Shown here in pieces: positions 12,550 to 57,217 of a stretch of 64,000 nucleotides of DNA. Made by a program: the position numbers and the translations under genes. Source of the DNA: Bigelowiella natans CCMP2755 (taxonomy: Eukaryota; Protista; Cercozoa). The stretch spans positions 1 to 64,000 of the forward strand of contig ADNK01000245.1 of the NCBI GenBank assembly GCA_000320545.1, written 5' to 3'. The notes beneath the pieces are model-generated. The model did not search any database. It saw nothing but the letters and a program-made list of their open reading frames with translations, and had not been told where the DNA came from. Within the stretch, counting starts at the first letter, position 1; each line of letters starts with the position of its first letter.

Positions 12550-15408
12550 CTAGCTAATCTTGCTTTCTACTGCTTTCCAAACTACTGAGAAAAGTGCGCC
12601 TTGTAGGCAGTTCACCAGAAGCCTGGTTTGCAGGCCTCTTCCAAACAAGCCTGGGAGACCATCCTATTCGCGTGCCATGGAGCCGTCGGGACAATATGCA
12701 GCCAGGTAACAATCATATGCATAATCAGTACATTATTGAAAATTTACCGCTCAATATTGAAACGACTCAAGAACCGGGTGTAAGGAAATCTCAGCGATAG
12801 CGAATAAGGTGACAAAATATACGTATGGCGTTTGCCTTGCCGGGGAAAATCGGTAGTGATTTTGGTGGGCATGCGTATTTTATGTGTTGTTTCTCCGCTG
12901 GTAATAGCAAAGATGACCTTATCTACAATTTCTTTGACTGCGTCCGCGTATGATATTGGGACCTGTATGGCGTGAAGAGAGAAATGACATCGACCCGCGG
13001 CATATGCATGTAGGAAGCATTCCGAATCATTACAACATCAAGATAACAGCTTCTTCGCAATATATCGTCGCACCTGCGATGTCTGCTTCGTTGTCTTTAT
13101 CACCCGTAGTGAGTTAGAAGTCGTATCCGAAACCCCCGACGCGATGATTCCGATGAAGGCCCGACGAACTAAGCTGTGGGTAACGATCATCATCAATCGA
13201 TCTCTCACATGGGGTTGCTCGAAAGTAATGAAAGGGAGGAAAGGGAAGCATGATTGGGTTGGGAAGTCGGAAGGGGAGATGCAAGGGTGGAGGGTGAGGA
13301 TTTTGGCACAGTCGATCTTTATTCAATTACAGTCGTCGTGGATATTGTTCAATGCCTTGCGTGTTGCTAAACCGCTGTTTTTCGCGATCAAATGACGTCT
13401 GCGTTTCTACCTGGCGACCACATCGCCTTCAGGAGCTTGGGGCAACGATGAGTCCAAAGAGTTGTACGTCAAAAACCTGAGACAGGGAGGGTTGCAAGTA
13501 TAAGAAGAGTGTCCTCACGGTATAACATTCAAGAATATCCGAACGCAACTCAAAGACGACAGATAATTGTACATATTTTCGTCGTGCTTCGCAGCATCAT
13601 CAAAACTGATGACGTGCAGGGATGACGATCCTCGAACGGAATAATAACAATTCGGAGGACTTGAAATAATTTGATTGACCCAAGCAAAACATATCCCATT
13701 AAAATTCCTCTAACGCTTTATCTATCTTCTTCGGTAGAACAAAAGAGTTACGCAATAAGGACCAAGGATAATTTCCAACGAACGTCGCAGCAGCAGCAGC
13801 AAATGCCCCGTTCCACAGGACACCAGGCCCTCCAACTTCGACCTGATTTTGATCATTTCAAACTCAAACTATGATTCTAAGCATTTGCAGCATTCTTTTG
13901 TGTTGGATGTCCCTCTACGACCCATCTTCATATGCATTTTACTCGCATTTACCTTCTTGCCCAGCCGCTCTAGCGCGTCCTCACCATTCACCTGCAACGC
14001 TGTCTTGTACGTGTCGATCGGAGTAATGGCGATCCTCCAAGTACTGGCTGCTGCTGATGCTATAGCTTGTTTCAGCTGATTAGAAAAAGTCATTCGTGAA
14101 CCGTTTATTCGATTCATCAAAGAAAACTGACCACCATCAATTCGAGGCTTGTCATCTTCCTAATGTGTCTCTTTGTTCGGGGGTGGAAAGGGGGGAGGGT
14201 TCCTACTATCTACAAGGCTGACCGGGAAGGGAAGTGATTGGGCCTCGGGGATGGCTTCAAGAGCCACCAAAATACCAGCGTTTGCCGCGGTGTCGCCAAA
14301 TCGTGAAAGTGGATTTTGGACGAGAGCATAACCGAGTCCTTGGTAAAATCGTCGTACTCCTCCCTGAATCGATACGATGATGCCTATCAACAAGAGAGAT
14401 AACATCATTGACGCCGCATATTGCAGGTACCTCCTTCCATAGGGTCGTTATAGCCTCTGTAGTTGAGGTCCCGTAACGATACTGGTAGTTCATGGCCGTC
14501 CTGTATGACATGAGACGATCGGCAAAAGTTATTAATACACAGCGACGAAATGGCAATGTGGAGTAGTCGAAATCGATAGAGATGATTCTGATGTTACAGA
14601 GTCTACATATACGCCATAGATGAAGAGAAACCTTGTGATTTTCACCCCTTTTTCTTTTGGTAGATTGATGGAAAAAGGAGTTTCTCAAGAGAACGAGCTT
14701 ATTAATACCTGAGCCACATGAGAGACAACACCTGCGCAACTCCGGCCAGTGCCCCCTTAATATCAGGGAGAAGAAAGGTGAAAACACATGACATCAAGTC
14801 GAGCAAATACCATATCAGGCCTATTTGTAGTTGATCGAACATACACGGACAATACATTCAGACTACCGATGTCCCTCCACCCAATGCCCTGCTCGCAGCT
14901 TTTTTGAAGATAGCTTGGTAGTCCACTGTTGCCCCCCCCACAGCCGCAGCTGCTGATGCTACATCTAGGATGTGGTTGGGGGAGAGAGGGACCTACAAAC
15001 GTGTATGAAGAAGTATGCAGATGAGAAAGTGGAATTCTCTAGAGTGCACTTTTCGCTTCTCCCCACGCCGTCACCTCAGAGTTTTCAACTCTGATCCCCC
15101 CTGCTGTAGACACATGAAGCTACAAGCACTACCAGATGAGGCAGCTGATCTGGAAAGATAACAGCGTTGCATCGCACAGCGCCTGTGTGCCTACAACCGT
15201 CTCCACGTTGCAAGCGTGGCCGTGTTTCATCTTCCCTGTTCCTCAAGAAACGTGGCGGTTTCGATAGCCTGAACCTGCTTCGGTGTTGCCGGGCGGGTGA
15301 TTCTGCAACGTGAAGATGTTTATGGGATGTGGTCGATGGCAGGAGAGCCACGGCCGCGAGAAGAGAGAGTAGATGGCGTGTGGCTCCGGGCAGCCGTGCA
15401 CGTGCCAT
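12550..15408 (-). CDS. Mitochondrial carrier family (SLC25) protein with N-terminal signal-peptide plus transit-like extension
   Basis: Exons give MNYQYRYG, GGVRRFYQGLGYAL, PLSRFGDTAANAG, ITPIDTYKTALQV (Px[DE]xxK signature) and DGLPGLFGRGLQTRLLVNCLQGALFSVVWK*. The leader MARARLPGATRHLLSLLAAVALLP is followed by an Arg-rich stretch. Confidence 0.85.
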
Positions 15409-15613
15409 CCGGCCAACGACTGTGCTTGTTCCGACGACGAACATCATCGGGGACTTTGTTCCTTTGGATGTCAATCTGTGGATGTCGCAGGGATCATTTC
15501 ATAACGATTTTTCAATGAAGAGTTTTTGTGGCAGAAAGATCCAAATTTTGTTGTCGCAAGAGCTGGAAACCAAGGAATCCAAGAAACATGGCCATGCACA
15601 ACAGGACACTTCT

Positions 15614-15641
15614 CTGACCCCAACCCTGACCCTGACCCCAA
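15614..15641 (+). repeat. Degenerate interstitial telomeric-type array (CCCTAA)n with every TA converted
   Basis: Reads ctga-ccccaa-ccctga-ccctga-ccccaa. Intact cccctaaccctaa occurs in an intron at about 3163-3175. Confidence 0.75.
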
Positions 15642-15652
15642 AGAAATCGACA

Positions 15653-15728
15653 GGGCAGACGGACGCACTCCTTGCAGCTTGGCAGACTTGTCAGCCTCTG
15701 ATGAAGTCAAAATCTTGATCAAGCAAGA
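15653..15728 (+). pseudogene. Possible ankyrin-repeat exon remnant inside a TpA-depleted island
   Basis: AG/GT-flanked segment encoding ADGRTPCSLADLSASDEVKILIKQE; restoring TA gives DGRTPYSLA, similar to the ankyrin GxTPLxxA..EVVKLL pattern. Confidence 0.35.
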
Positions 15729-16699
15729 GTGCGTCGGGAGACGGATCCAGGTGTTGTTTGACAGAGCTAGAGAGACTCAACTGAATGGATTTGCACTCAT
15801 TGAGTGCGGAACAATGGCGGGCGTTGGGAGCGCCTCTCACTCTGCACGGACGAAGGAAAAGAAAAATGTGAGTCGTCGAATGGAGAGATTCGATTTCTTC
15901 AATGCTGAACGGATTTTTCACAACTCTAGACCTCTTTGATGACTCCACATTCGATCGTTCGTGCAAACAACAGCACTGCACGTCTCACTGTGTCACTTGT
16001 GTTGCATGAACGTGCACACCGCATCCATTTTTGTGTGCACGCCTCACACCATGTCCATTGTTGCGCAAGCGCGTCTACGTGAATGATCATTTCAGCTGCA
16101 CAGCACTGCTAGACTGGCACATGTTGGAGCTGCTCCATTCTCACACGTCATTGATTGAGTCGTGATTGTTGCATTCCATGAGATGCTCGCTTGTGCATCT
16201 ACCACATCAATGATTCAATTCAAAATCCAAGTTCAGTGTTTCTAGACACGGTGCATGGAAAAACACATGGCTCGCAAAGCTGCATTTTAGCATGATGTCT
16301 AGACATGAAATCAACACTTTGGAAGTAGTTCGTTATGCACAATTTTCTCAATTTCTGAGATGAAAATCGATGATTGATTCGTTCTTAAATTTGACCTCAT
16401 TCAAGCATGCATAGGCCTACATCTGTTGAGAATCGAAACAAAAATGCCAACACGCACCACTCATCTAGCTGTGAACATGAGCTTGCACGCATTTTGAGAT
16501 GGCATCATGACGACACTGAAAACATTTTACACGTCCCAGCACATGATCTTTATCTATGTGGTACCAAGTATAATGTCTTCTTCACTTCTTCATGTTTAGT
16601 TTGCTCTCAATGTCCCGCACGAGTTCGTCAAATTTAATTTTCGTTTTTTTTGCTTGAGCAGCACTTTTTTCTTTGACTACTTGAATTTTCTATTCAAAA

Positions 16700-18600: not shown

Positions 18601-18839
18601 TCGGCCATTTGAAGAATTTGCACTCTGTACCAGCGCAGTTCGAAGCTTTTGTTCATCGAATGCAGTCGCACCTTAAATTCCGTCGAGAAAGAGTCGCGAA
18701 GATATTTTTGATGAGATTATTGAAACACCATCGAATTTTTAGTTGCGTCTAGATGCGTAGTAACATTTCCAGGAGTCCAGGAATGTTTCCAAAAAATGGA
18801 TGACTGGTGAAAAAAGCACTGAACTCACTCTCTTTGCTC

Positions 18840-19065
18840 TGACAATTTCCTGTTCCAATGATCATGGTCGATTGCCAGTTTCTGCCACATGCAAATGCCT
18901 GTCTCCCATGTGGTTCTGGCGCATGTAGATTTGATCAATGCTTCATCACTTTTTCATTGTTCATTGTTCATCATTCAATGCCTGTCTCCAATGTGGTTTT
19001 GTTGTTCTGGCGCATGCACGTTTGCATCAATGTTTTGTTCATTGTTTGTTGTTTGTTGTTCATCG
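18840..19065 (+). mobile_element. Two tandem truncated copies of a LINE/SINE-like 3' end with degenerate (TTA/TTTA)n tails
   Basis: gcctgtctcccatgtggttctggcgcatgtagatttgatcaatgc matches copies at 51370-51650; a second partial copy starts at about 18978. Tails ttcattgttcattgttcatca and ttgttcattgtttgttgtttgttgttca restore to T/A simple repeats. Confidence 0.65.
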
Positions 19066-20039
19066 AAACGGAACCCCAATTTTGCGCACTCTGGATCACG
19101 AATGCCATTCACAAAGAAACCACGTGTGTGCAGAGCCAGAGAGATGGCATTGCACCACTCACGCTAGCACGCTAGCACGGCTAGACGACCCAGACAAAGT
19201 GGGGGTCGGGAGCAAAGTGATGACAGGAAAATCGTTTGTGGCACAACTGCAGAACGCTGCACTTCCACGGGCTTTCACGTGGCTTTTTCTCACGCAAAGT
19301 GCACCACGTCTCACATCTTTCCAGAACTTGGGAAGAGAATGGCAAACACACCTTCACGTCTTCGCTGGGATGTTTTCGGATTTGTTTTTGACAAGCGAAC
19401 TTGCACCAAAAGCACATTGCTAGATTGGTTTGCCGGGAGATTGACATCATGGCTTGCACCATGGGTGCCGCGTGCCAGCGTGTGAACTTGACACCTTGTG
19501 GGTGCAAGGTGTTGTGGACATGGCAACATGCACATTGTCCATCACAGGTTTCAGAAGAACATCATGCTCTCATCAATGACAATTTCACACGTTGCATGTG
19601 CAAGGCGCACTCAATGAAGACAGGCACTTTTGAACACGTGAATGCTGAACGATGACTGAACAGAACGCACCTTGCGCAAAACAGGCACATCAACGAGTTG
19701 AATTCTAAGCTTGTCTAGCTGTGCACCCCGTCTAGCCGTGACTAACTTTTGCGTTTTCCAATGGTCCAAGAATGTTTCAACTCGATCCTCTGTAGCTCCA
19801 TCCAGGGTCATTGCGTCTGCACAGAGATCCCATGATGGACTTGTGAACAGGATTCTCACACAACCCAAATTCAGCTGGAACAACATGCTACAAGGGCTAA
19901 ACCATTCGAATTGCAAACACATTCGCCATGCCATCATGATGACAAAAAAAAATCGAGTTTGAATGATTGGCAAGGGTGGCAGAAATCTTGAATCTTTGAT
20001 TCTTCCTGGTGACATATTCTTTCTGGCGGCATAGCTAGA

Positions 20040-32656: not shown

Positions 32657-32859
32657 AAATTGATTGTAAATTCACGATAAATGTTGATATTAGCCGCTCA
32701 CAATGCTGCTGTGAGCATGCAAAGGCAACATGAACAGATTTCAGGGCATGTGTATCTGTGCCTCTCTCATCATGTCATGTAGCGTGGCATCACCAATGGG
32801 CACATTGCATGCACCATCCATCAACATGCAGCATGCCACATGTTGTGTCCATGTGTAGT

Positions 32860-34528
32860 CACCATGCACCATGCTGACATGGTTTGTTCTAGTGAGGCGC
32901 AATGGGCATGCTTTCAAATCGTCATCTCGCCATTGGCGCGAGACGGATGCAATGAATTGATCAAATCTGCAAATCTTTTCAATGGTCGACCGTGACAACA
33001 TGAACTGCGTTCTCGATCACGTCGACCTCATCTCAATGTGGGCGGCAAATGCAGTGCGCTGTCATGACCAGATGAGACGAAGCGCAATGGAAGCTGATCG
33101 AACGCATCATGCAGCTCGCAATCTAGCAATGGCCCGTTTCGACGCGACAACAATGCAATGGACATGCGCATCACGCCATGGGCATGCACATGCTGGCATG
33201 GCTGCTGGCATGCTGGCATGCAAGCATGATGCAAGACGGATGTGATCAATCAAATCAAACTTCCAGACTTGTTCAATGGTCATCTCAACGTGGCTGTGCA
33301 ATGCGCAGTGCCAGAGTGATGTGCACTGTGCGTGTGTCGTCTGCAGTCTTGCTTGCACAGGCTGGCCTGGCTAGCTCATCTGGTCATTTTCACATTGAAA
33401 ACCTGCACGACACATCCAGACATCGATGCATCGAACACCACTAGACGTGCAGACCAGCAAGGAAGGCATCGCACGACGTTTGCACAAACACAACGATGTG
33501 CTGTTTGGCTCTGGGGCTGTGTGCACTGCGATCTGCACGTGTGCACGTGCTTTTTGCACATTGTTCACCATTGCGTTGCCAGGCGCGCGCCAGCTGTGCG
33601 TCTGCTTTTGTTCCAATTGCAATGAGCAGAGTGTGAGCTGCACACCAGCAGACCAGGCTGGCAGCAGGCCAGCCAGCTAGCAGGAGACACAGGTGCATGA
33701 TGGACATGCAACACACAATGCATGTGATGTGCACAGTGCATTGCTGTGTCCATCATGTGCACATCCATGTGCACCAGTCTGGCATGGCAGTGCACATCGT
33801 GCAAACTTCTCAGCATCGCCTCTGCAAGGAAGAAACTCACATCGCAGAAGAAATGGCCAGAGAGAGCATCTGCGGGGGGGCGGTGCAGACTTCACCACCC
33901 TGCTAGCCTGCTCAGTGCACTTGCACGTGCACAAAATGGATTCCTTGCACAGGCAATTGTGGTTCCATCCATGCATTCCGTTGAAGGAATCATGGGACGA
34001 AAGTCCTGATGCCTTCTCTCAAGATTTGATGCCACTGTGTTGCATTGAGCATGCTGGCATGCACTTGACCGCTGCTGTGATGAGTTGATGCGCCCAACGT
34101 GCGATTTCTGTGTTTCTGCTTCAGGAAAAATGCTGTGATCGATCAGTTGTGTCTAGATTTGTGTGGCCGCAGCTGGTGAAAACACTTTTTCTTTTCACTT
34201 TTTCTTTTCAGAAGATTGGGCTTGCACGAAATGACATTTTCTTTTGGTTCAACGACAACGGCCAAATCTCCATTCCGTTTCTTCTTGCGCTCCTTTTCAC
34301 ACACATGGATTTTTCGTCGCCACCCACGTTTGCAGCCATGGGAAAGGAACAATTTGTGGGCTTTGCTTTTTGATGCCAACAGTTTGTTTCGAATTCGTTC
34401 GAATGGCGCCATGACTTCGTTGCCCACCCTTGATTGCTGTTTTGCTGTTCTTTCATCTGCATGAGATTGGATGCAAAGGAAAGACCCGATTTCAAAAGCT
34501 TGAACACATCGCATGTGATTCACAGTGG
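32860..34528. other. TpA-erased island (hypermutated intergenic DNA)
   Basis: By-eye count: 7 TA dinucleotides in about 1.67 kb, all within CTAG. CpG is common and TG/CA are strongly enriched. Confidence 0.9.
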
Positions 34529-35059
34529 TATTTTTTGAGAACCAACAGAGTTACATAGTTTGACCTGGTTTGCTGTTCATTTTTTTTTTTGTGCTGGCAT
34601 TCCCCCTCCGCCGAGGCTCGTCTAGAGCGACTGCTTTCTTCTCCATCTTCCTCGACAATTTCGAGTGCTTAGAACGATTGAAATGAAACGTATGAAGGAT
34701 TCACTCAGTTCTTGATAGATGTTAAAACCAAGCAACTCCACCTTTGGGTCGTCGCTGGCAGCTTCTCTCTTCCTGGCCCTCTTCTTCGGAGCCATTGGTA
34801 CCCATTATATAGCTTTTAGAAAAGGGATGCCCTTACATACGTGCGACAACATATTGTGGGATATAATCTTAGAAGGAAAACCGGCATGCAAGTCCACCGC
34901 TGCAAGTACGTGAGCAGCTCCCGATATTAACCAGCGTTTAGATAGTGCGACATGATATAATATTCTAAAAAGGAAAGAAATATCCCCTGTAGCAGACGTG
35001 ATGATGATGGCAGTGTGACGAGAGCGCCCCATTAGGAGTCGACGTGGTTTTCTGACATC

Positions 35060-43600: not shown

Positions 43601-44902
43601 CCGACGAAAATGCTGTGAGGTGTGGAGAGGCGCAGACGATAGTGCCCCCACTACCAACTGAACCATTCACAGCTGAGATGACATCAAGACCCCTGCCATC
43701 CCACGTTACACTTGTTTCGTTCCAAAACTTACAACTAAATAGATCCCCCACTGATGATGAGGCTTGAGCAGCGCTCACACCGACTCCGAGCACGGTTCGT
43801 GGGATAGTAATTTTGTAAGGCGTTTCCGCGGTGTTCTCCTGCACCACTTCGCCTCCTTGCGACATAGTCGCCAACACCGTTGTGGAGCTTTCATTTCGGA
43901 ATGATAGATACAGCTTTAGCTCTGAGCTTAGCTGCATGTTTAGAAGTACACATGAGCGCATATTTGTTATGCATAGTATGGCTATGTTTGGCATGTATAT
44001 GTGCAGAGAGAGGAAGAGAGAAAGGGAGAGAGAGAGAAAGAGAGAGAGAGAAAGAGAGAAAGAGAGAGAGAGAGAGGGGTGGGGGGGAGAGAGTATTGGT
44101 TGTTTTCTGATCTATTGTAGTGTAGAAAGTAAATACACGAAGAACGTCTAGCTCTAATCTTTGAGCATGAGTGAACGCACACGCACCGTCGCAAGTGCCA
44201 GAACGACTGAATCGGAGCTGGAGAGTTCGACTGAGATGGGAACCTCAATACGAGATCCTGTGCTGCTGCTGGAAAGATTGGCGCCACCGACCTAAAAATA
44301 TAGGGCGCAATTAAAATTTTTAGCACTCTCGCATGGAATAGCAGGAAATAACGGGAGGAAAAGTGCGGAGGGTAAAGAATCCAGATGGCAGCGTTGGGTT
44401 GTGAAAGAGAAAATACATCTGAAACGTCATGATCTAACAACCAAGATGGCGGATCAAGGAGTAATTCTGCAAACGCTGCAAATCACACAAGCATTCACCT
44501 CCGTTGATGACAGTAACTGCGCAACAACTGTGATGTCACCGACGCTCACTTCCCTTGGGACCTCCCCCTCAATTGCATCGGCCACTAATCTCAATCCTAA
44601 AGCCGTGAGAGACTGCTCCAGCACTGCTGAAAGTTTAATGTTCTCCCTTATGCTTTGGAGCATATCTATCGAGCGAATGAGATTCTCAATTGAAGATAAA
44701 GATGCTGCAATTGCGGTCGGAGAGAAATCATTGAACGGGCTGTAGTAACACGTATGAACCAATGGAAGAGCATAGATACATATGACAGAATAAACTCAAT
44801 TCGTTATCGTTTGAACCCGAACGCTGAATGCATATGATTAGATTATTGCGTTCTTAAAATATTTACGCGCGCGCGTCTCCCCCCCCCCCCCCCCCCTCTC
44901 TC

Positions 44903-44941
<39 letters not shown>

Positions 44942-47900
44942 AAACAGTTGCGCACATAAACTTGATATAAATGCAGCATACCTGCGGGTCAAGTTGAGGA
45001 CAAGCTCGGCAGCAGTGGTCCTAGTTTTTTCTGTCAGCTCTTCCGGGTCGTTGAAGTCGGTAGCTAAACTTACTAACACTAACGGCGCCGCTACTGAGCT
45101 ATTATCACCATCGATCGTCTTGACGAACGACTGCACAGACGATATGAGCGAAGTTCGTATTTGCGCTGCTCTACCGCTGGAAGTGGACTGATCGAATTTT
45201 AGTGACGAAGCAGTTCCAGATACCAGGGTTGCAAAGGAATTAAAATCCCTCTGCCCAAGCTTTTCCGTAATGTCGTACATAGTTGCGTTCACATCAAAGC
45301 TCACTGGCTGTCTCACAGTAGCATTAAAGAAGAATGAAGTCTCAGCTGCAAACACGTCAGAAATGACTGCGCTAATCTGTAGAACTGCTTGCCCGTCGGG
45401 GGGGAAGGGCAAAGCTGTGGAATAGCTCGATATAGCTTGGAAGGAGCACAAATCTTGGAAAGCTGGGTGCTTGGTTCCTTCAGAGACATAAACAACAGGC
45501 AGTTTATACTGAAACTTGTAGCTGAGTGGGAGATCTTCGTCCTCCCACAAAGCACAAGCCATGACGAAAGTATCTTCAAGCGCAACACCAGAGGATGGAG
45601 ATATGCTACATGATCCCAGCGATGGGGGAGTATTAACGGTGAAACTCACCTCAGAGGATCCCATCAACCCTCCTCCCACCAGTGGGTTTGCCGTCCTTGT
45701 TGCAGTAACGCGAAAGGTGTAGGACTGTCCAGGAACGAGGGAGCCTGCTGCAATTGCCATGACCGACTTGTTTATTGGAGACAAAACTACACCTGGGGTT
45801 GTAAGATCAAGGCCCCCCTCTGTGCAGCTCCATGCCCATGAGTAGCCAACAGAGCTCGACTGATCCATCTCCGTCCCCGCCGCATTAAGCACAACTCGCA
45901 CATTTGGATTCACCTTGTACGCTCCATTCACAATTGCCACGCCCTGTGCGGCGACTGACGAAGAGACAATAGGAATGTCTGCGGACACAGTTCGGAACTG
46001 AAGGGAAGCAAAGGCTACTCGGGGAGCGGAGCTATTAAAGAAGGTCACTCCTGTAGCATTTGCTGTGAGCTCAAACGTTGCGTTCCCCTCAAGGACGGAC
46101 GTGTTAATCGTTGCTGTATTGGTTCCAGTTGAAGGAAGCATAACCAGCGGCGTTGCTCCTGAAGCAACTGACGACTTCCGTAGCTCCCACACGTAGCGAA
46201 GAGCATGAGACATGTTTACCGGGTCATACTTGGGACTTGCCGTTATAGAGATGACATATGGGTTGGAGCTTACAACTGGAAAATGTTGCAGCGACCCACC
46301 TGTAATAACGATAGATAAAGGGAGGCTGGAAGTCACGGCGATAACCTAACAGTATTATGCGATTTGTCTCATCCTCGGGAAGATATGCACACGAGCAGCA
46401 CACACAGCAACTGGAATGAAGACGGATAAGAAGGTGATTTACCTGTGTGATGTTCACATCACCAATGAGATAGCCGCTCGAGTCATAGCTTGACACATGA
46501 AGATTTAGCCCGTACGTACTCCCTAAACTGAGAGTTCCTTTAAGAATTTCCAGTATAGTTCCCTAAAGAAGGTAACGTTAAGGTTGAGAGTAAAGCATGT
46601 TACAGCCTTGCGACACATCAGAAAATTTCGCTCAATAGTGATCTCGCTTGACTTTGGGAAATATTTGTTTAAATTCTCTGGCAGCGATAATTCTCACACC
46701 TGGGGTAATCCTTCTGAGATGAGTGAATCAGGAGGTGAAACGATCTCAGCTGCGTACTCTTTTGCGCTGGAGGAGATTCTTTCATCGCCAGGCTGCAACC
46801 AGGTCCACTGAGCAGTTGTTCTGGTGTTGGTTGTGAATGGTGACGTCCCGTTGGGACAGCTCGGGGCATTGACAACAGGCTGCAATATCCAATCTTTGTC
46901 TACATAAATCTGAGAAAGTAGCTGCGTCGGCATCTGCGCCGTTGGAAGTAGCGCTGTAGAATCCTTGATGAAACTGTGTGACAATGCAATAGACTCGCCC
47001 AAGAAGTTTGTAGCAATAACGGATATATTATGTTCCCCAGAGGAAAAGTTTCGGGCGTTCAAGGTTATGAAACTGGTTCCAAGAACGGACTGACTTGACA
47101 GGTAGGCATCGACGGCTGTGTACGGTGATCATGCAAAGCAAATATTTCATGTCGTAGAGTTAGTGAATGAAAAACTTAAGAAAAGAACCTGGTTTATTCG
47201 CATTGGAGCTCGACGTAGTATAGCTCCAGTTGAAGGAGACTTGCCGACCAGCTGATCCTATGAGTGAGGCTACCATGATGCTCACATCACCACAAGCACC
47301 CACACTCTGCGGTCCTTGGAGGGATGCAGCCAGCAATTGCGGACTTATGGGTTGTGCAACTGCTACCGAGTGTGCGCTGGAGAATCCACTCGAAGTGGGA
47401 TCGCTGAGCACCCCACCGACCATATTCAGATATTGGTTGGGTACGATAACAGGAGCTTCACCAAGATATAGACTCAGCTGTTTCTGGGAGCTCCACAGGC
47501 AGCGGTAGCCGTTTCCCAGGAGGGACAAAGTTAATGCAGTAAACAGTGAACTGCACGGGGGCTGGTTCGTAATTGAAGAGAATACCACAGTGATAGCTGT
47601 TAACGCGTTTGAGAATATTGCTGAATATGCAAACTTATAGCAGAGAGTAGATACAAAAACAAACAAATGAGTCGCGTCAAAGAGGTGAACTGTGAAACAG
47701 GCAAGCAGCATCCCCTTAAAATACACCGCTATTTCTCTCCCCTATCATCCCCACATTTAGTTACCGGAGTGGCTGGGCTCGGGGTATTTGTAATCGGGGT
47801 GGACGTGGGACATGAACTCGGGGAAAAAGTACTCGGAGAATTGCTGATTGGAGACAAACTAGGGAAAGAGCTTGATGGTGAAGATGAGGGAGAGATGGTC

Positions 47901-49110
47901 GGATTTATAGGTGCAGCGGAAGGCGCGCACGATGTTGAAAAGGTCGGTGTTTTTGTTGGAGAAATAGAAGGATTTGACGTTGGGAAAAAAGTAGGGGCAA
48001 CAGATGGTGAGGTCGTAGGTAGAGACGAAGGCGTGGATAGAGGTGAAGTCGTTGGTGATGATGTAGGTGATGATGTAGGTGATGATGTAGGTGATGATGT
48101 AGGTGATGATGTAGGTGATTGTGTAGGTGAAGTCGTTGGCAATAATGTAGGTAAGAATGAAGGAGAGGCACTTGGGCTTATACTGGGTGTGGTGGAGGGC
48201 GCACTGGAGGGAGACTCCGTTGGCGCAGTTGACGGAGACACCGTGATGCAGAGAGAATACTTCGTTTTGAGGTAGGAGTGGACGGTAGACATCTCTGAAT
48301 CGTTCAGTGTTCGATTGTATATTATAACTTCTGGTGTCATTGACTTCATAAATCTTGTAGGTGTTTGGCCTTGTTTCTTCGACTGAGCTCCAAGAGTGAA
48401 ATAGGCAGGACCAATTGTCGTTGAGTTCAAAGCTGATATCGAGGTTCCGGATGCAACTTTGACCCCACATCGGAAAAGATCTTGCGTGCGACTGGACAAA
48501 TTTATTCTGAATGCAAAAGTATAGATGGATTCTTGGTAATTACTAGGGCTGTAAAGTGTTTGGCTTCCTCCATAGGTAGTGCCGCTATATGCTTCAAATG
48601 CGCCCATCCTGATGTCGATAATTTCAACTCCTTTGGGGGCCCAGTTGCCTTCGCCCCCGAACCATGATCGACTGCCATCGTGTTTGATATTATGAGCAAC
48701 TGCAATCATCGTAGCACCCGAATTCGAGATGAAAGGTGAGTAAGGGTAATCGTTCTTAAACCCCAAACCCTGAAGATACATGTTGTCGGCGAAAGATACT
48801 GTGTTGTGTCCATTGACGTAATTTCGAAATAATATTGGGTCAACATTGGAATCTCCGGTAGAATTGAGTCCTCTACCATAACCTGATGCGTCCTCCCAAT
48901 AGGCAACCCTAGAGCCATTGGGGCTGGCTAAATCATCGGCCTTCAGCCAGAGGGACATCCCCTGTTTAAAAAAAAAAGGCGAAAGATTTGTTGGGCTTCA
49001 TTAATTTAAAATGAGGACGAGGAAGACCTGGGGTAGACCGCTGCCGCTCACATCTTCGATCCAAGTGAGAAAGAAGAAGAGCGGGGGCAGCATCGGGCCT
49101 GTCCATGCGA
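40692..49110 (-). CDS. PKD1/REJ-like multi-pass receptor: LamG/ConA-like domain, S/T/P stalk, REJ domain, GPS site, TM helices, PDZ-like domain
   Basis: SLWLKADDL..VAYWEDASG; PT-type repeats; REJ motifs VNTPPSLGSCSISPSSGVAL..WEDEDLPLSYKF; GPS CKFWN..W..G..CASPHLTAFS; HPWLSIF..STKR TM block; PGLQL..VSSVEKGGDAEKNGVKVGWKLVKI (PDZ-like). First exon uncertain. Confidence 0.85.
48056..48128 (-). repeat. 12-bp coding minisatellite (gatgatgtaggt)n encoding PTSS repeats
   Basis: About five near-perfect tandem units inside the 47729-48958 ORF. Confidence 0.9.
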
Positions 49111-50639
49111 GGATCTAATCCTTAGGTGCAAGGGGTCGATTCCTATCGGCGTTTCGCTTTTGAAAAGTGTGAGTTGACGCATGCAGAGCCGTTTCACTCG
49201 AAAAGGGTCTTGCCGCACGCTCAAATGTGAGAAATCCTCGGAAATCCCCAATGAATTACAGGGTTGAAGACCGAAAAGTGTTGTTTAAATTTCTCGTTAG
49301 ACTTGAATACGATTAATAATAGATCTAATAGAGTCTGGGGCGCATTAAGAAACAGTCGCATTAAGAAACACTCAGAGAGAAAAGAATTTTTTTTTTTTGA
49401 AAATGTTTCACCGGGATTCCAGGGCATTTTCAGACAACGACAACAGGATGTTACTGTGAATACCCCGTGGGCATACCTTGCTTTTTGAATTTGAAACGGA
49501 AGCCTGCTCATCGATGAACATGAGCGGGGAGGCAAAGCGACGGCGCAGTGGGGCGAAGCGACGGCGGACCAGATCTCTGTCTACGTTTGGGCACCATCAC
49601 TTGAAGTTTGAAGTTTGTGGGGAAGTCCGAATATTTGAAATTTCCGCTCGAAGGCCGTTCAAGTCGTCCAAAGCAAAGCTTGCTGCCACGTATACCATAA
49701 ACAGCTCTGCTCCGGCATGAAGATCACTTACAAAGACTCAGAAGGTGACGTCGTGAGGGTCAAATCTGAATGGGAGATGACGCATGCACTTGTTTCCACT
49801 CAAAAGTTTACTGTGGTCGCCGTCAATCAAGCCCGTGCGTCGAACAGTGAGTCAGCTAGTAACGAGGCAATGGTGCCAGTTGACCAGAACCAGAGAGTCC
49901 TAACTACGTATTTCAAACCCGTTGATGAGAATAAAAACAAACCTGGGAGGCCGAAAAAGAAAAGGAGAAAACGATCATCGAAAAATGCTGCGGCTAATAA
50001 CGTGGGCGATGATGCTACCGTCGTTGAGGTGAGCAATGTCGAGACGGAGATGATGAGAAGGTGCAAAACATTCAAGGCCACCCGCAACAACAAGGCCACT
50101 CGCAAGAACTGGGGATATGGGAAAAACCTGGAAATTCTCAATAAAGCTCTTGAAAGGTTGCACGCACACAATATGTAGCGTGCATGATATGATCATGCGA
50201 GGTTGTTCTGATTGTGCATTGGGAGCAGCACAATTACGTGTCATATTTGATACCAAAGGATGTCTGTAACCTCGGTAAAATTCCATAGGTTTTGATGTTT
50301 TTCAATGTGTTTGTCAGTTGGGATCGTAAGAAAAAACACATGAGTGCCAGAGAATTTACTCGATGGCATTCGACAACTCCATTGGTGCCAGACACAGAAC
50401 GGGTGCCAAGGGGGACTCTCCTCCAGTACGTAACTGGCAATCGAACCATTGGAAGAAGCGTGGGGAAAAAACCCAAAATACCAATATCGGCGAAGATAGC
50501 CTTGGCACATGTCGTAGCCATGAAAGACGAAGCATCAAACGGCGTGGGTCCAAAAGGTGTCAGAAAATTCATAAACTCAATTGCTCCAGATGAAGTCGGG
50601 ACTCACGTGCACACTGCTTGCAAGAAGGTGATGTAGCAT

Positions 50640-50713
50640 TGTTCTATACAGGGATCGAACCTGTGACCTTGCGTTTATTAGACGTATGCTCCAACCAGCT
50701 GAGCTAATAGAAC
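50640..50713 (-). tRNA. tRNA-Ile (AAT)
   Basis: Reverse complement folds as GTTCTAT-TA-GCTC-AGCTGGTTG-GAGC-A-TACGT-CTAATAA-ACGCA-AGGTC-ACAGG-TTCGATC-CCTGT-ATAGAAC-A. Acceptor and T stems are perfect, A and B boxes are present, and there is one A.C mismatch in the anticodon stem. Confidence 0.9.
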
Positions 50714-50913
50714 TTGCAATAGATTGATTGACAAGCCTCCATTCGGAGTTGAACTGATGACCATCTGCTTTGCTTATCTGCACGATGATGACCATTGATT
50801 CATCACATCCGTAGGTGGTGAACCTTGGGAGAGAACTTGGTCTGATCAAGGGCAGAATGGTGAAGGGACAATCGACAACGTCGAAAAGAATCGCTGCATG
50901 CTCGGAAGATCTA

Positions 50914-51650
50914 TAAGCTCATCGACCCTTTGTTTTTAACCTTAATATTGGACCTGTTCTTTATCCGGCATTTTGGGGGTACGACAACCTAGCAACCCCC
51001 GCCTTGTCGCAGGTGACTTTCGGCCATGTCACCTTGCCACACGATGGCTACTACATGGCAAGCTCTGCCTTGCTTTGGGGGCGAGGACTGGTGTTCTTCA
51101 AACTGACAAAGAAATCGACAGGGCTTTCCGTCGAACCATTGTCCTGCTTGACAATTTTGCTGCTGTTCGCCAATCCAACTTCTCCCCGACGCAAGCTTCT
51201 TCCTCCTGATTCCATTGTGTCTGTCTCCGATTGCTAGTTTCAGCTGCAACTTGGTCACATTTTGACTGCATCAATGAACAATGTTCACTTCACCTAGCTG
51301 CAACTCATCATCTTAGCTTCCCTAGATGTAGGTCATTGGCTAGTTGTGTGACTCATCACCAACAGGGTGCTGACAAGTCCTTGCAACGACTGTTGTTGAG
51401 GCTCTGTTGCATGCACATGCTTGTCTCCCATGAGGTTCTAGCACATGCAAATTTGATCAATGCTTCATTCAAATTCAAATTCAAATTCAAATGCTAGTGA
51501 CGCAGTGCAACAACACTCCCATGAGTCCTTGCAACGACTGTTGTTGAGGCTCTGTCACATGCACACGCCTGTCTCCCATGTGGTTCTGGCGCATGTGAAT
51601 TTGATCAATGCCACAGCTTTGTTCATCTTCATCATCATCATCAATCATCA
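50914..51650 (+). mobile_element. 5'-truncated non-LTR retrotransposon end (ORF C-terminus, 3'UTR, tail) followed by a second tail copy
   Basis: An ORF remnant to 51209 interrupts the transposase exon. The 3' segment is duplicated at 51370-51492 and 51522-51650, each ending in a degenerate simple repeat ((ttcaaa)n; (tca)n), and the same family occurs at 18840-19065. Confidence 0.55.
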
Positions 51651-52269
51651 CAGCAGCACAATGAAGTGCTGGAGTGGCACCATGCTGTCGCATCGCTCTG
51701 CGAGGGTGTGCTGGTGTGCCTTGCACACCACGCCGCCATTGTTTGGAAGTCGTGACAATTTGTCATTGTCACTTGCACATCACACACCCGGAATGACTAG
51801 ATGAGAGCACAACGACACTGTCTAGCTGTGGCAAACATGCATGCAAAATGGAGCCTGATGGCGAGGTGTGTCCAGGGAGACGTGCTAGCGTGGAGTGGTC
51901 TGGTGGTGGAGCTCTAGAGCTGTGTGCGCTGCGAGCACTCGCACCATCATTGTGCAGCTGTGCCTGAAAAACTTTGTGAAGAACAAAGCACATGAGGTGT
52001 CTTTTGAATTTGGAGTGGTCGACAACTCCCTGTGCAAGACTGTGCTCCGTTGTGCCCTGCTAGCCTAGCTACGAGTGCAGCGTCACATTGTGATGTCGTC
52101 ATTTCCAGGAATATTTCACATTGCATGAACACATTGAACAACATGCATGCCGCTTACACATTTTGTTTGAGATTCAAAATGTCACATTCATTGCATCACA
52201 TGCAGTCACTCTCATGAATGAGGTGGAAGACTTTGCTAGCTTGCCACTGCATTGCACTAACTGCCTATC

Positions 52270-53841
52270 TTAATATCCAGAAGAGGCTTGCCGAATGAGA
52301 GGAAACGGGGGCATTGGAGTTTCCATTTCGTTAGCAGGGGGGACACGGACCTCATGTCCAACACCACTAGGTGCAGGTTCGAAATCGAAAATGGATGATT
52401 TTGAATATAGCTCCTCATGGATATTGCCTGTTCCTGAAACATCTTCACCGAGCAACTCGTTTTGGTGTCTATCTTCCATCTTTTGTTTTGAGTTGTCATT
52501 GGACTAAAGTTCATAGGTTTGTACACCAAGTTTAAAAAGACAAAGCTAACCGATCGATAAAAATCATATTGATGCAAAATTATACCTTGCAGAGTAGAGA
52601 CGGTGGAGAAATATAGGAGCTCTGCTGGAAGAAGTTTTTTGGTACTGCATTGATTGACTCTATCTTACTTTCATTTATCCCGACATTGTCCAATCTTTTT
52701 GACTTTGTTTTTGGCTTTTCGCTCCTTAGAGCAGCTTGGTGTTTCCTTTTTCTCAAATTTATCTGACAACACATGTAGATGCTCAAAAAGTAATTAATAT
52801 TCTCCATTATTTATTACTTGATCATTTCGACGATCTCGTTCCTTGAAAACAGTTTCCACTGCATCCAAGCGTGTTGTAAATTGTTCCAAAACAAGAAGGG
52901 CTGAATTCATGGCTTTGTGGGTATTGCTAAGTTTTGCTTGGGTTTCCTGAAGTTGCTTCAAAACTTGGGTAATATCAGACTCTTTGTTTGGGAGGGGTGG
53001 AAGAATAGTCCGTGATTTTGCCATGCTTGGTCGCTTGGATCGGGACTAACAAACAGGTTTATGATGAGGTCATGCGGCTTGCATAAAATTGTTTGTACCC
53101 CGCACCTCAATCGGGTTTGAGAAAACCTCATTTAGGGATGGAAAAGCCTGAATAAATGCCAGGTTTAATTTTCATACTTCCAAAGTGTATCCCTTTAAGT
53201 ACTAACCATCTCTTCAGCTCTTCCCTTTGGATCAGCGAAACACCGAACACGAAATTTTTGGTTCATAAAGCTCTTAGATACTTTATTAATCCTAAACCTG
53301 AACATAGCTTCACGTGCTTCGCGATTTACAATGATAATTTTACTTTTCGTCTCGTCAGGAAAGCAGAGTTGAAGAATTCCCTGAAATTTATCCCCTACTC
53401 TCCTGATGAATGATATTAGATCATACTTCCTAGAATGTTCTTTTTTGCACCCAAGAGCGTACTTTCGATCCTCAAAATAGAGATCTAACTTCAGCTCTAC
53501 TTCGAAGTTAAGAGGGAGTTGGCCTTCCAGTTTAACCCCAACAGTCAAAAACTATGCAAAATGGGTGTTTATGTATGTTCTGAAGCGCATGCAATCTACA
53601 CAAGCTTACAGTGTCCTTTTTCACGCCGACATCCTGAATGTGGTCATGCATGACAACAAAAAATCAATTCTACTGGATCGCATGATTGAAGCTGTGGTTA
53701 CCTTGTACCAAATGGGAGACGGTTGACTCGTTATTACGATTCGAGGAATATCACTCAATTCAAAACTGCGAATGCAAATACACTTGTAAAAACGTATAGT
53801 CAACCCTTCCTGGTCTACATGAACCTGGTCTGGTTCTCCAT
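52270..53841 (-). CDS. CudA-like DNA-binding protein
   Basis: Spliced MENQTSFELSDIPRIVITSQPSPIWYK|DVGVKKDT|FLTVGVKL..AMFRFRINKVSKSFMNQKFRVRC..SKRP followed by a coiled coil. It resembles the WYKDEGG..FRIxxVSxxHxxQxF signature I recall for protist CudA-like factors. Confidence 0.6.
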
Positions 53842-54106: not shown

Positions 54107-56653
54107 ATGTTTGGGGGAAATGAAAGTGGCCCTTCTTCACAATCTACTTTGTTTCAGTGTGCCTGCATGCCACATTCCTTCAATAATTCACTTGAATCTA
54201 CAGGATTCAAAAAGCAAGCGATCCTTTGGATCCTTCGGTCACACAGGGAGAGCATCATTAAACAGATCTTTGCTGCAACAGTTACAGCTACTGAAGGTGG
54301 AGAAAATAATCCGATCAAGGACAACGATGACTTCGCTATGATTGACGAAACTTCATTGCCATTCGTGCCAATAGTTCTTAAAATTGATCTTATTCTGCTT
54401 TTTCAAAGGTATGTACATTCAGATTGGTAATTTAAGTGAAAAAGTGCTTTAAAAATGTCAATTTAACACAAATTTTTATTGTGCAGGGACATTCAATTTG
54501 CCAATCATCTTTTGAAGAAGTTCAACACCAGTCACAAGATCATCTCTGATATTTTACCAAAGTTAGTGAGCAGTAAATTCTTTCAAAGGTTGCCTGAAAA
54601 ATCACGAAGGAAATCATTTCATCTCACATTACGCTTTTCCACCTTTGGACCGCCAGTGAGGTTGTTTCTGGTTCGTGTCCACTTTAGACATATGACACTT
54701 GTTTTTGGTCAGGAGAATCACAGGTTTTACAAATCTACAATTTGGCTTATAATTATCATCACCACCTAGATTTTAGGGCGAATGACAGGTTGCAACATTG
54801 TCATATCTGGAGTTATTCAAAAGGTTGCCTAGATATATAATTGAGTTAAGGATTTCGAAATGTTCTTGATTTATTTACCTCGTACCGAAGGTTTTCCCCG
54901 CGAGCCATTTCTTCTACTCAAGTGCCAGTGTTTCTCGAATCGAAATGTCATGCCAAGTCTTGAAGGTGCAAATTACAATTTTCTGTGGAAATCTTAATGT
55001 GTGTCATGCAGTTAGCCCCAATAATAAATTTCTGGAACCGCTCTGAGGAACGCACTGGTTCGCCATTCTCAAAGTCTCCTCTTTGGATGATTCTAACTGC
55101 AGAACTCGTACATTTATTGTTTGATGTACAAGATTAGTTTATCTCATCATGCTATTTCAGGTCAACCTAAACATTGCAGAAGGAGATGAGATACTGGTAA
55201 ACTACCGAACATCGAAATCCAATGGCGAAATAATTTACAACTCCCATGCTAGTCTTTTTGCAACTTTCAGTCCATTGGAATGCTTCAAATGAAACCTCCT
55301 AAGGAGATTATCAGCATTCTACCTCAGAAATGCAAGAGGACGACATCGTTTCTGTTTTTGGTCGTCATATTAATACTAAGAAACACCTACTGTTTAGATT
55401 TCTAACGAATAACTTCAGGTAAATAACATTATCTGGGCTGGCCATAAATCCCTTGATAAAGCATTAGTAGACACTTCACTATCACCACTCGATGATTGTA
55501 CTGAAGATACAAAATTTGATGGATGGTCCCAGACGTCAGTGTTCTTAGATAGTTTTTCAGCTAAAGTAGCACCTCATGGATATGGACGGTAAACTTTTCC
55601 AGTTAAAATTTCTATTGTTTGAGTTTATGCTATTTGTGTTGCATTTATTTTCCCGGAGATCACTAAACTTAGCCATGCTATTGAGCGTTCTCTCTGGAAC
55701 TCAAATCTCGAAGGATTCTACTCTGACCAACGACCAATTGCACTTGCTCGTTAGCTCAAACGATGTCATTGTTCAGCGTATGATGACCTATGTAAGCTAT
55801 CAAATACAATTTATTGAATGTTGATTCACAAAAACATAAAATATTTACTTCCATAAGGCAACCACATTCTACAAAAGATGCATTATCTACAATGAAATAC
55901 CCAGCCAAAAAGAGTGGATAAAAATGAATGGCGGTTTGATATTCTTCCGTTTACAAGCTACACCAAAGAAAAATACAGTACTTCTGGAGAAAATAATTAA
56001 AGAAAGGACATCGACTGTCTGGGTCCTAGTTCCATCTTCGATTCGAAATATGAAAAAAGATTACAATAAACTGGCTTATCAATTTGATCTTGTTGTTAAT
56101 ATCGATCCAATTTACGATTCCAAGATGGATACTATGTTATCCTCTTTTATTTTAGATGGATATCGATCTCCAACTGCTGGATTTTCCGTGGAGAGTTTAT
56201 CACAGCGCCGTTCATTGGAAGTTCATATGACTAGGCATGCACAGGAGTTAATTAAAGATTACTTCATGGCAGCCCGTGCAAGAAGAAATAGCTATACATT
56301 TCATGAATTAGAAACGATTGCAAGAGTTTCCAGGTGTCATTGTAGGCTGCATCAACGAAAACTTGTTACTCTGTTAGGTATATATGTAATGATGAATACA
56401 TACCTCCTCAAATTCTGACATAATTTATTTTATAACTCTTATGTCAAAATTTGTATGAAACACTACAGACGTGTTCGTTGCCATCATGGTGGTGGAAGAG
56501 ACTATGGTGAAGAAACTAAGGAGGTCCCACATGGAATTTGTGGATTTAGAAAACGGAAATCTTAATGTTGACTTGCAATTTGAGGGTGAGCTGCCCATTG
56601 AACGGTTTCAAAATTTTGTCGACCAAGCTAATAGATTTATGGCTAATTTGTGA
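54107..56653 (+). CDS. MCMDC2: MCM-domain-containing protein 2-like (degenerate MCM AAA+)
   Basis: C-terminal lid YQFDLVV..MTRHAQELIKDYFMAARARR..ELETIARVSRCHCRLHQRKLVTLL|DVFVAIMVVEET and N-terminal LKIDLILLFQ|RDIQFANHLL. No intact Walker A motif seen. Confidence 0.65.
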
Positions 56654-57217
56654 GAATGACGTGGCTACGATGTGATGATTGTTGAGCTTTACATTTCAAC
56701 GTGTCTACGAAAATTGAAGTCTAAAACATTAGACTGAAACATTAGAGTCACTGCTGAGACTCATGCTAGCATGGTAGTGCACCTTCTTTCAGATAAAGAC
56801 AAGCTGACATGCAGGTTGCAGCACGATCTATTTTTCCGATTTTGCATTTGAATCGCAGAGTGACATTGCAGTGTGCGTTGATGCATGGACATGCACAGCA
56901 GGCCAGAAAGCAAACGGGACATGAAGCAAGCATGTTTGGCATTGTGCAACACGATGATGCATGTGCGGAGATGTCAAAATTTGCTCATCAATGCGATGCA
57001 TGCATTTGGATGTGACTAGTACTGTCAAATTGATCAATCTAGCGTCATGTGGCATGATTGAACGTTGTCGATGTCTAGACGTTTTTGTTGCGAATGGTCA
57101 TTGCTGTTGTGCAACACGTGACAGAAAGCAAACGAATTTTCTAATGACACGTTTGGTTGTCTGTACAAATACTCGTCTAAATAAAAAACAAGTGGTCCAG
57201 CAAATGCGTGCATTAAT

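What the first reader, a model, noticed from the sequence alone, without database searches (positions are those of the whole stretch)
50628..50814. tRNA-Ile(AAT) gene nested antisense inside a transposase intron
Seen: a complete cloverleaf (50640-50713, minus strand) begins 12 bp after a GT donor. Splicing 50628-50814 joins HTACKK to VVNLGRELGLIKGRMVKGQSTTSKR in frame. The tRNA keeps its many TA sites although downstream DNA becomes TA-poor, and it has no oligo-T terminator immediately 3'. Inference: either a DNA transposon carries a Pol III gene as cargo (possibly an insulator or shield against silencing and hypermutation, or a source of antisense read-through), or a tRNA/SINE head inserted into the intron.
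Basis: partly seen in the sequence, partly recalled or inferred. Interest (0 to 1): 0.75.

Follow-up and report, generated by a model that had tools for sequence, protein, structure and literature searches.

The report
tRNA nested in transposase relic's intron
An isoleucine tRNA gene sits backwards inside a spliced intron of a single-copy, likely decaying, likely transposase-derived gene of the alga Bigelowiella natans, which looks like an ordinary nested tRNA rather than the cargo or shield of an active transposon.

Summary
ARAGORN and Rfam find tRNA-Ile(AAT) at 50640-50713 (-), and an RNA contig splices exactly 50628-50814. The window is Bigelowiella natans. The host gene is single-copy in the one DNA run laid and is transcribed. 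It encodes a 283-aa protein: a PB1 half-domain, a basic stretch and two likely HTH motifs of the pogo/CENP-B type (weak support), stopping 33 codons after the intron. No DDE domain or TIRs were found. All 10 differences from a wild variant of exon 1 are non-synonymous, so it looks like a decaying relic. The TA-poor DNA downstream is a separate high-copy repeat, and TpA hypermutation of foreign DNA in this alga is already published. The tRNA is TA-richer than its host (p=0.014), but its flanks are not, so no shield effect is visible. It has two non-canonical bases (G21, A28·C42). No other element copy was found, so 'cargo' is unsupported. tRNA expression was not shown. Open points: no close tRNA paralogue was seen, and a 6-nt repeat flanks the tRNA plus trailer.

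The parts
50640..50713 (-). tRNA-Ile(AAT) gene, intronless, no encoded CCA; G21 and an A28·C42 mismatch are non-canonical
50628..50814 (+). intron 2 of the host gene (187 nt, GT-AG, phase 0), holds the tRNA on the opposite strand; 5 letters (AGGTG) fit either end
   Evidence: spliced RNA contig
50157..50317 (+). intron 1 of the host gene (161 nt, GT-AG, phase 2)
   Evidence: joints in runs X15 and X16
49499..50156 (+). exon 1; ATG at 49717; C-terminal half of a PB1 domain (below Pfam cut-off), basic stretch, start of first HTH
49514..49720 (+). 68-aa upstream ORF in another frame whose TGA overlaps the ATG at 49717; possibly the N-terminal half of the PB1 domain cut off by a frameshift (resemblance recalled, not confirmed by any search)
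   Evidence: sequence; searches negative
50318..50627 (+). exon 2; psq-like HTH and likely CENP-B/Tc5-like HTH
50815..51172 (+). exon 3 (at least to 51172); stop TAA at 50914-50916, then 3' UTR running into the repeat
50618..50623 (.). TTGCAA, 17 nt 3' of the tRNA; the same hexamer lies directly 5' of the tRNA at 50714-50719 (possible target-site duplication)
   Evidence: about 1% by chance for one fixed test
50564..50567 (-). first T4 run after the tRNA (+73), inside exon 2 on the opposite strand; candidate Pol III terminator (inferred)
51078..51682 (.). separate high-copy, TpA-depleted repeat (borders approximate, from depth bins); 88-nt internal duplication; related pieces at 18881-18946

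Best explanation
A tRNA-Ile(AAT) gene lies antisense in the spliced second intron of a single-copy, transcribed gene that is likely the decaying relic of a pogo-type transposase, and the tRNA likely works as an independent Pol III unit. Shown: the tRNA sequence, both splices, the early stop, single copy number in one DNA run, and a separate high-copy repeat downstream. Inferred: Pol II transcribes the relic and the spliceosome removes the intron, so the mRNA carries no tRNA sequence. [quoted passage not shown] The host has lost its catalytic domain and shows a moderate TpA-to-TpG/CpA bias. The tRNA keeps its TA steps because of constraint on its own structure, or because it is younger than its surroundings, not because it shields the region.
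For: tRNA and splices. Single copy: one unbroken 1627-nt DNA contig at depth 117 over 49487-51113, neighbouring unique contigs at 107.5-109.2, and bins of 525-56,627 over 51078-51682 (1 of 14 DNA runs laid). Host ancestry: Atlas feature search of residues 110-266 gives HTH_Tnp_Tc5/HTH_psq/CENP-B clusters at 0.88-0.90, 10 of 10 best named hits in one family or clan. The only non-self hit among 1.84 billion representatives (E 6.6e-4) has a sub-threshold HTH_psq match and aligns 34% over 76 aa. Third-position T before A is depleted in the CDS (11:31 against 51:34, p=0.0004), more than in four neighbouring ORFs (odds ratio 0.24 against 0.76, p=0.01), in line with the published enrichment of DDE/RT domains among TpA-poor CDS. 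Decay: stop at 50914-16 in RNA contigs of three runs (X15, X16, X17); no Pfam match in 3 kb downstream in three frames; 10 of 10 exon-1 differences in a wild variant are non-synonymous. Nesting is common: the mean B. natans intron is 184 bp and introns are 31.3 of 91.4 Mb; 44% of 609 C. elegans tRNA genes are intronic, only 56% of those in the host's orientation.
Against: No Pfam transposase or HTH match for the host protein itself. Atlas scores of 0.88-0.93 with 136-165 shared features are leads only, and the top hit has no family. Both fold models were low-confidence and matched no HTH. tRNA expression is not shown: about one minus-strand read in the tRNA bin of X23 and no tRNA contig in X15. 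The tRNA has two non-canonical bases; 9 of 9 viral tRNAs with the same 5' arm have A where it has G21. 0 synonymous of 10 has p=0.09 under neutrality, the contigs have depth under 5, and the variant may be a paralogue because it splices to another sequence. The neighbouring ORFs used as controls are stop-to-stop frames that may include intron DNA.
Confidence: 0.55

Rival explanations
1. The tRNA is an inserted, now decaying copy. A 5'-matured pre-tRNA with a 16-nt trailer was retroposed, or a genomic tRNA fragment was patched in at a break, and the insert supplied or created the intron's donor site. The working Ile(IAU) genes lie elsewhere.
For: TTGCAA lies directly 5' of G1 and again 17 nt 3' of the tRNA; such a recurrence is seen at 72 of 5889 local positions, 1.2%. 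The GT donor lies inside the bracketed 90 nt. Intron 2 also has a 5-letter direct repeat at its ends. G21 and C42 are both what a TpA hit on a canonical base would give, and C42 is in a favoured product context. No poly-T terminator lies near.
Against: The repeat was found after scanning k=5-15 over 60 nt, so the real chance is higher than 1%, and CAA upstream is a usual Pol III start motif. No donor copy was seen: no shared 31-mer, and nothing else laid at 85% or more in DNA run X2. All other invariant positions are intact and 7 TA steps survive (2 of 9 lost has p=0.09 at a 50% loss rate). The G21 context (TTGG) is not enriched in hypermutated patches.
Confidence: 0.22
2. The tRNA was cargo of a once-mobile pogo-like family and came to this site with the element; the other copies have been lost or have diverged.
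For: The host looks transposase-derived and TpA-biased. The tRNA has no close paralogue in the DNA run laid, which would fit a foreign origin. A stretch upstream of the gene (bin 49384-49504) is at a few copies.
Against: Single copy; no convincing TIR pair in 48990-53600; no DDE domain; no relatives in protein, metagenome or viral collections beyond two short HTH proteins; viral tRNAs are only 72-78% alike and are Ile(TAT) or Val.
Confidence: 0.12
3. The tRNA gene acts as a chromatin barrier that keeps silencing and TpA hypermutation from spreading out of the adjacent repeat into the transcribed gene.
For: tDNA barriers are established in yeasts (PMC7990762 passages). The gene is transcribed and less TA-poor (CDS rho 0.44) than the repeat (0.19) 365 nt away. 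The published hypermutable viral region is silent.
Against: No TA gradient around the tRNA: the flanking 200-nt bins are 0.46 and 0.28 against 0.33-0.63 further upstream. The TA boundary follows the repeat's edge, not the tRNA. The host CDS itself is TpA-biased.
Confidence: 0.08
4. The host is not a transposase relic but a lineage-specific PB1-HTH DNA-binding gene (domesticated or native) that is still functional as a 283-aa protein.
For: It is spliced and transcribed in culture and in the sea; the 283-aa frame is open; fusion to extra domains is known for domesticated pogo genes (PMC7386202 passages).
Against: No synonymous change among 10 differences; only half a PB1 domain in frame (profile 43-66 of 84); no orthologue found.
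Confidence: 0.18

Closest known systems
Intronic (nested) tRNA genes, e.g. Caenorhabditis elegans (PMC4999229, passages read)
   Same: A Pol III tRNA gene lies inside a spliced Pol II intron; about 44% of the intronic ones there lie opposite to the host gene.
   Different: Here the host is likely a transposase relic rather than a conserved gene, and expression and conservation of the pairing are untested.
pogo superfamily transposons and their domesticated genes (PMC7386202, passages read)
   Same: Likely N-terminal HTH_psq plus HTH_Tnp_Tc5-type DNA-binding pair (Atlas leads); extra fused domain, as in POGK/POGZ/CENPB.
   Different: No DDE_1 domain, no TIR/TSD found, single copy, 283 aa, a PB1 remnant in front, no sign of purifying selection.
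TpA-specific hypermutation of foreign DNA in Bigelowiella natans (bioRxiv 10.64898/2026.01.13.699255, parts 1-3 of 5 read, supplements closed)
   Same: Same organism; TA-poor, TG/CA-rich patches; DDE and RT domains enriched among TpA-poor CDS.
   Different: The main text does not mention CTAG sparing (0 hits) or tRNA genes as boundaries.
tDNA chromatin barriers of yeasts (PMC7990762, passages read)
   Same: A tRNA gene with A and B boxes lies between a repeat and a transcribed region.
   Different: No compositional sign of a barrier here; no functional data.
nimtRNAs, intronic tRNA look-alikes that enhance splicing (PMC7722341, abstract and outline seen)
   Same: A cloverleaf inside an intron close to a splice site.
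   Different: Those are mitochondrial-derived; this one is a cytosolic-type Ile(AAT) on the opposite strand, so the pre-mRNA carries its complement.

Membership tests
cytosolic tRNA-Ile(AAT) gene | Cloverleaf above the Rfam gathering score, AAT anticodon in a 7-nt loop | tested here: met
cytosolic tRNA-Ile(AAT) gene | All stems paired and invariant bases kept | tested here: inconclusive
   20 of 21 stem pairs; A28·C42 mismatch and G21; A73, C4-G69, U12-A23 and C29-G41 present (their role as Ile identity elements is recalled, not from a call)
cytosolic tRNA-Ile(AAT) gene | Transcribed by Pol III, processed, I34-modified and charged | not testable with these tools
   RNA runs at hand are mRNA-type or contigs; about one minus-strand read
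intronic (nested) tRNA gene | Lies wholly inside an intron that is spliced from a Pol II transcript | tested here: met
   joint 50627/50815 in X15, loose end in X16
pogo transposon | N-terminal HTH_psq / HTH_Tnp_Tc5 DNA-binding motifs | tested here: inconclusive
   no Pfam hit; Atlas leads 0.88-0.90; indirect psq link through P0002; folds uninformative
pogo transposon | DDE_1 catalytic domain in a transposase of 300 aa or more | tested here: not met
   stop after 283 aa in RNA of three runs; no Pfam match downstream in three + frames over 3 kb or in 12 nearby ORFs
pogo transposon | Terminal inverted repeats with TA/TAA/TAAA target-site duplication | tested here: not met
   19 short inverted pairs in 48990-53600, none convincing as TIRs (longest spanning pair 24 nt at 79%); decayed TIRs could be missed
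pogo transposon | Several dispersed copies | tested here: not met
   flat single-copy depth in DNA run X2 at 85% likeness; 1 of 14 DNA runs laid
domesticated pogo-derived gene | Purifying selection and orthologues in related species | tested here: inconclusive
   0 synonymous of 10 differences, small sample; no orthologue found
tRNA-derived SINE | Many dispersed copies of the tRNA-like head with a body and tail | tested here: not met
   tRNA lies on an unbroken single-copy contig

The most novel reading that the evidence does not exclude
This is the alga's only tRNA-Ile(IAU) gene. An essential host tRNA would then be held inside a dying transposon gene, which keeps the locus from being deleted, silenced or fully TpA-hypermutated: a hostage form of protection against the host's deaminase-type defence.
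Probability: 0.1. Interest if true: 0.7.

Novelty: new member of a known kind. Interest (0 to 1): 0.3.

Why it matters
As it stands it is one more nested tRNA gene, in an unusual host. Its use is as a small natural record of the TpA hypermutation system of B. natans: repeat, transposase-like relic and tRNA lie within 2 kb and show three levels of TA loss. If the tRNA proved to be the only Ile(IAU) gene, or if tRNA genes genome-wide bounded hypermutated tracts, it would show how the mutator is targeted and how foreign DNA can escape it.

Tried and rejected
No whole genome was held, so tRNA gene counts and element copies could not be searched directly. Homologue searches found only the JGI model itself and two short HTH proteins. 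Metagenome and viral contigs gave no relative of the protein or of the tRNA core. Viral origin of the tRNA: 9 viral loci share the 5' arm but differ at 16-21 of 74 positions, and the matched genes are Ile(TAT) in 8 and Val in 1; not a source. PDB sequence searches were empty or trivial. Two single-sequence folds had mean pLDDT 36 and 56; Foldseek and VIA gave nothing significant, only weak PB1 rows for the N-terminus. The idea that 49514-49717 is the N-half of the PB1 domain was not confirmed by Pfam, Atlas or PDB. Energy folding of the tRNA is unremarkable (z -0.65). The JGI model's third intron (339-aa product) is not seen: RNA contigs run through 50813-51172 unspliced. The other sequence joined to exon 1 in X18 is not in the window. 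tRNA-like pieces in X17, X18 and X20 are about 80-90% alike and look like other tRNAs; they are not evidence of expression. The bacterial promoter/terminator scan is not applicable. No B. natans tRNA count by anticodon was found: 'Bna' in the PMC13578239 supplement is Brassica napus, the PMC9858662 supplement has no hit, PMC13437025 has no mention, and the genome paper is not held. Paper searches for a tRNA in a transposase intron showed no such title or abstract in the listings; this is a weak negative, as the library lacks most subscription papers.

Full report
Observation. ARAGORN finds one tRNA in the window, tRNA-Ile(aat) at 50640-50713 on the minus strand; Rfam RF00005 scores it 58.7 bits against a cut-off of 29. 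Twenty of 21 stem pairs form; the exceptions to the canonical pattern are an A28·C42 mismatch and G at position 21. Its 3' end is 12 nt from the GT at 50628. The first T4 run is 73 nt downstream, with TTCTT at +14.

Organism and gene model. Exon 2 is identical to JGI model Bigna1/67693 of Bigelowiella natans. A 1326-nt RNA contig (run X15, RNA by guess but spliced) joins 49499-50156, 50318-50627 and 50815-51172, removing GT-AG introns of 161 and 187 nt. Metatranscriptome X16 shows the first joint and a loose end that fits the second. The spliced frame from ATG 49717 gives 283 aa and stops at 50914-16. That stop is present without change in contigs of X15, X16 and X17, and the JGI model's third intron is not seen. 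X15 has no coverage inside intron 2: its bin depths equal the exon share alone.

Copy number. In DNA run X2, the only one of 14 DNA runs that I laid, one unbroken 1627-nt contig at depth 117 covers 49487-51113; neighbouring unique contigs are at 107.5-109.2. From about 51078 to 51682 summed depth rises to 525-56,627. So gene and tRNA are single-copy, and the TA-poor DNA is a separate high-copy repeat with relatives at 18.9 kb in the window. An unbroken contig implies that no 31-mer of the tRNA occurs elsewhere (inference from how such contigs are built). No other record was laid on the tRNA at 85% likeness, although the same tool picks up 39-62-nt tRNA arm matches at 80%. This falls short of proving a sole copy, because the tool drops human-like records without notice and short tRNA contigs could be among them.

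What the host is. Pfam finds no transposase or HTH domain, only the C-terminal half of PB1 at the N-terminus (E 0.003, 17.9 bits, cut-off 23.6), echoed by weak Foldseek rows. The Atlas feature search of residues 110-266 returns HTH_Tnp_Tc5, HTH_psq and CENP-B clusters at 0.88-0.90 below an unnamed hit at 0.93. The only non-self hit in 1.84 billion representatives carries a sub-threshold HTH_psq match and aligns with residues 129-204. That pair of motifs is the DNA-binding part of pogo transposases (PMC7386202, passages). No DDE domain follows and no convincing TIRs flank the gene. A 68-aa upstream ORF ends on the ATG and resembles the missing N-half of PB1 by my recollection of the family, but three searches did not confirm it. 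A wild variant of exon 1 (X18; 4 of its changes also in X16) differs at 10 sites, all non-synonymous, where 21.6% of sites are synonymous (p=0.09 under neutrality). These contigs have depth under 5, and the variant is joined at the intron-1 donor to a sequence not found in the window, so it may be a paralogue. I read the gene as a likely transposase relic in decay; a functional PB1-HTH gene is not excluded.

TA content. A preprint on this species (10.64898/2026.01.13.699255; parts 1-3 of 5 read, supplements closed) reports TpA-to-TpG/CpA hypermutation of integrated viral DNA and finds DDE and RT domains enriched among TpA-poor coding sequences. That explains the patches. TA obs/exp is 0.19 in the repeat, 0.44 in the host CDS and 1.23 in the tRNA. 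The CDS is depleted of third-position T before A more than four neighbouring stop-to-stop ORFs (odds ratio 0.24 against 0.76, p=0.01), which fits a foreign origin. The tRNA has more TA than the rest of the gene (7/74 against 50/1506, p=0.014) but not significantly more than the other intron DNA (p=0.15). The 200 nt on either side are as TA-poor as DNA further away, so any protection stops at the tRNA's own edges. That points to constraint on the tRNA, or to a younger age, rather than a shield. G21 and C42 are both changes that a TpA hit would make. Nine of 9 viral tRNAs with the same 5' arm have A21, and C42 is in a favoured context while G21 is not. Without close relatives the direction of these changes is not shown.

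How it got there. Two weak hints suggest an insertion: TTGCAA directly 5' of the tRNA recurs 17 nt 3' of it (1.2% of local positions show this, before allowing for my scan over lengths), and five letters fit either end of intron 2. Neither is decisive; CAA is also a usual Pol III start motif (PMC13578239 passage) and AG/GT is the usual splice context. Nesting itself needs no special cause: the intron is of average size for the species (184 bp), introns are about a third of the genome (31.3 of 91.4 Mb; PMC12730881 passages), and 44% of C. elegans tRNA genes are intronic, many on the opposite strand (PMC4999229 passages).

Mechanism, committed. Pol II makes a spliced mRNA from the relic (shown). 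Pol III likely transcribes the tRNA from the opposite strand by its internal promoter, with a trailer of 14-76 nt antisense to the donor and the end of exon 2 (inferred). The two units are likely independent. I put this at 0.55, a decaying inserted copy at 0.22, family cargo at 0.12 and a barrier at 0.08; a still-functional host gene (0.18) is compatible with several of these.

Verdict. Real feature, known kind, modest interest (0.3). Paper searches (listings only) showed no report of this locus or of a tRNA in a transposase intron, which is a weak negative. The most novel reading still open is that this is the only Ile(IAU) gene of the alga (about 0.1); a tRNAscan-SE run on the assembly would settle it.

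Noticed in passing
window 15201-16300, 18751-19850, 32701-34650, 51078-52050, 56801-57150, 7651-7950: In the TA-poor patches the surviving TA steps are mostly CTAG: CTAG is 2.9 times background while the other 15 xTAy words are 0-0.26 times. This suggests that the TpA mutator spares CTAG, or that CTAG is regenerated. The preprint's main text has no 'CTAG'.
   Followed up: partly
window 49514-49720 and 49717: A 68-aa upstream ORF ends in a TGA that overlaps the host ATG (ATGA); it may be the frameshifted N-half of the PB1 domain. Not confirmed by Pfam, Atlas or PDB searches.
   Followed up: partly
window 50156 (run X18, record 6): A wild variant of exon 1 continues exactly at the intron-1 donor into 195 letters not found in the window: another allele or paralogue with a different second exon.
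   Followed up: partly
window 51078-51682 and 18881-19064: High-copy TpA-depleted repeat family with an 88-nt unit duplicated at 148-nt spacing; the host transcript's 3' end runs into it. Family not classified.
   Followed up: partly
window about 52148-52500: Minus-strand reads with a poly-T loose end at 52148 in X23 suggest a convergent polyadenylated transcript ending there.
   Followed up: no
window 49330-49516: Stretch just upstream of the host transcript is at two to four copies in DNA run X2 and has a 16-nt tandem repeat at 49341-49372; could be a remnant element end.
   Followed up: no
window 44843-48997 (-) and 55840-56418 (+): Neighbouring host genes: a large REJ/PKD-domain protein gene and an MCM-lid-like ORF.
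   Followed up: no
JGI model Bigna1/67693 (P0001): The model's third intron and its last 73 or so residues are not supported by RNA contigs; the transcript stops at 50914-16.
   Followed up: yes
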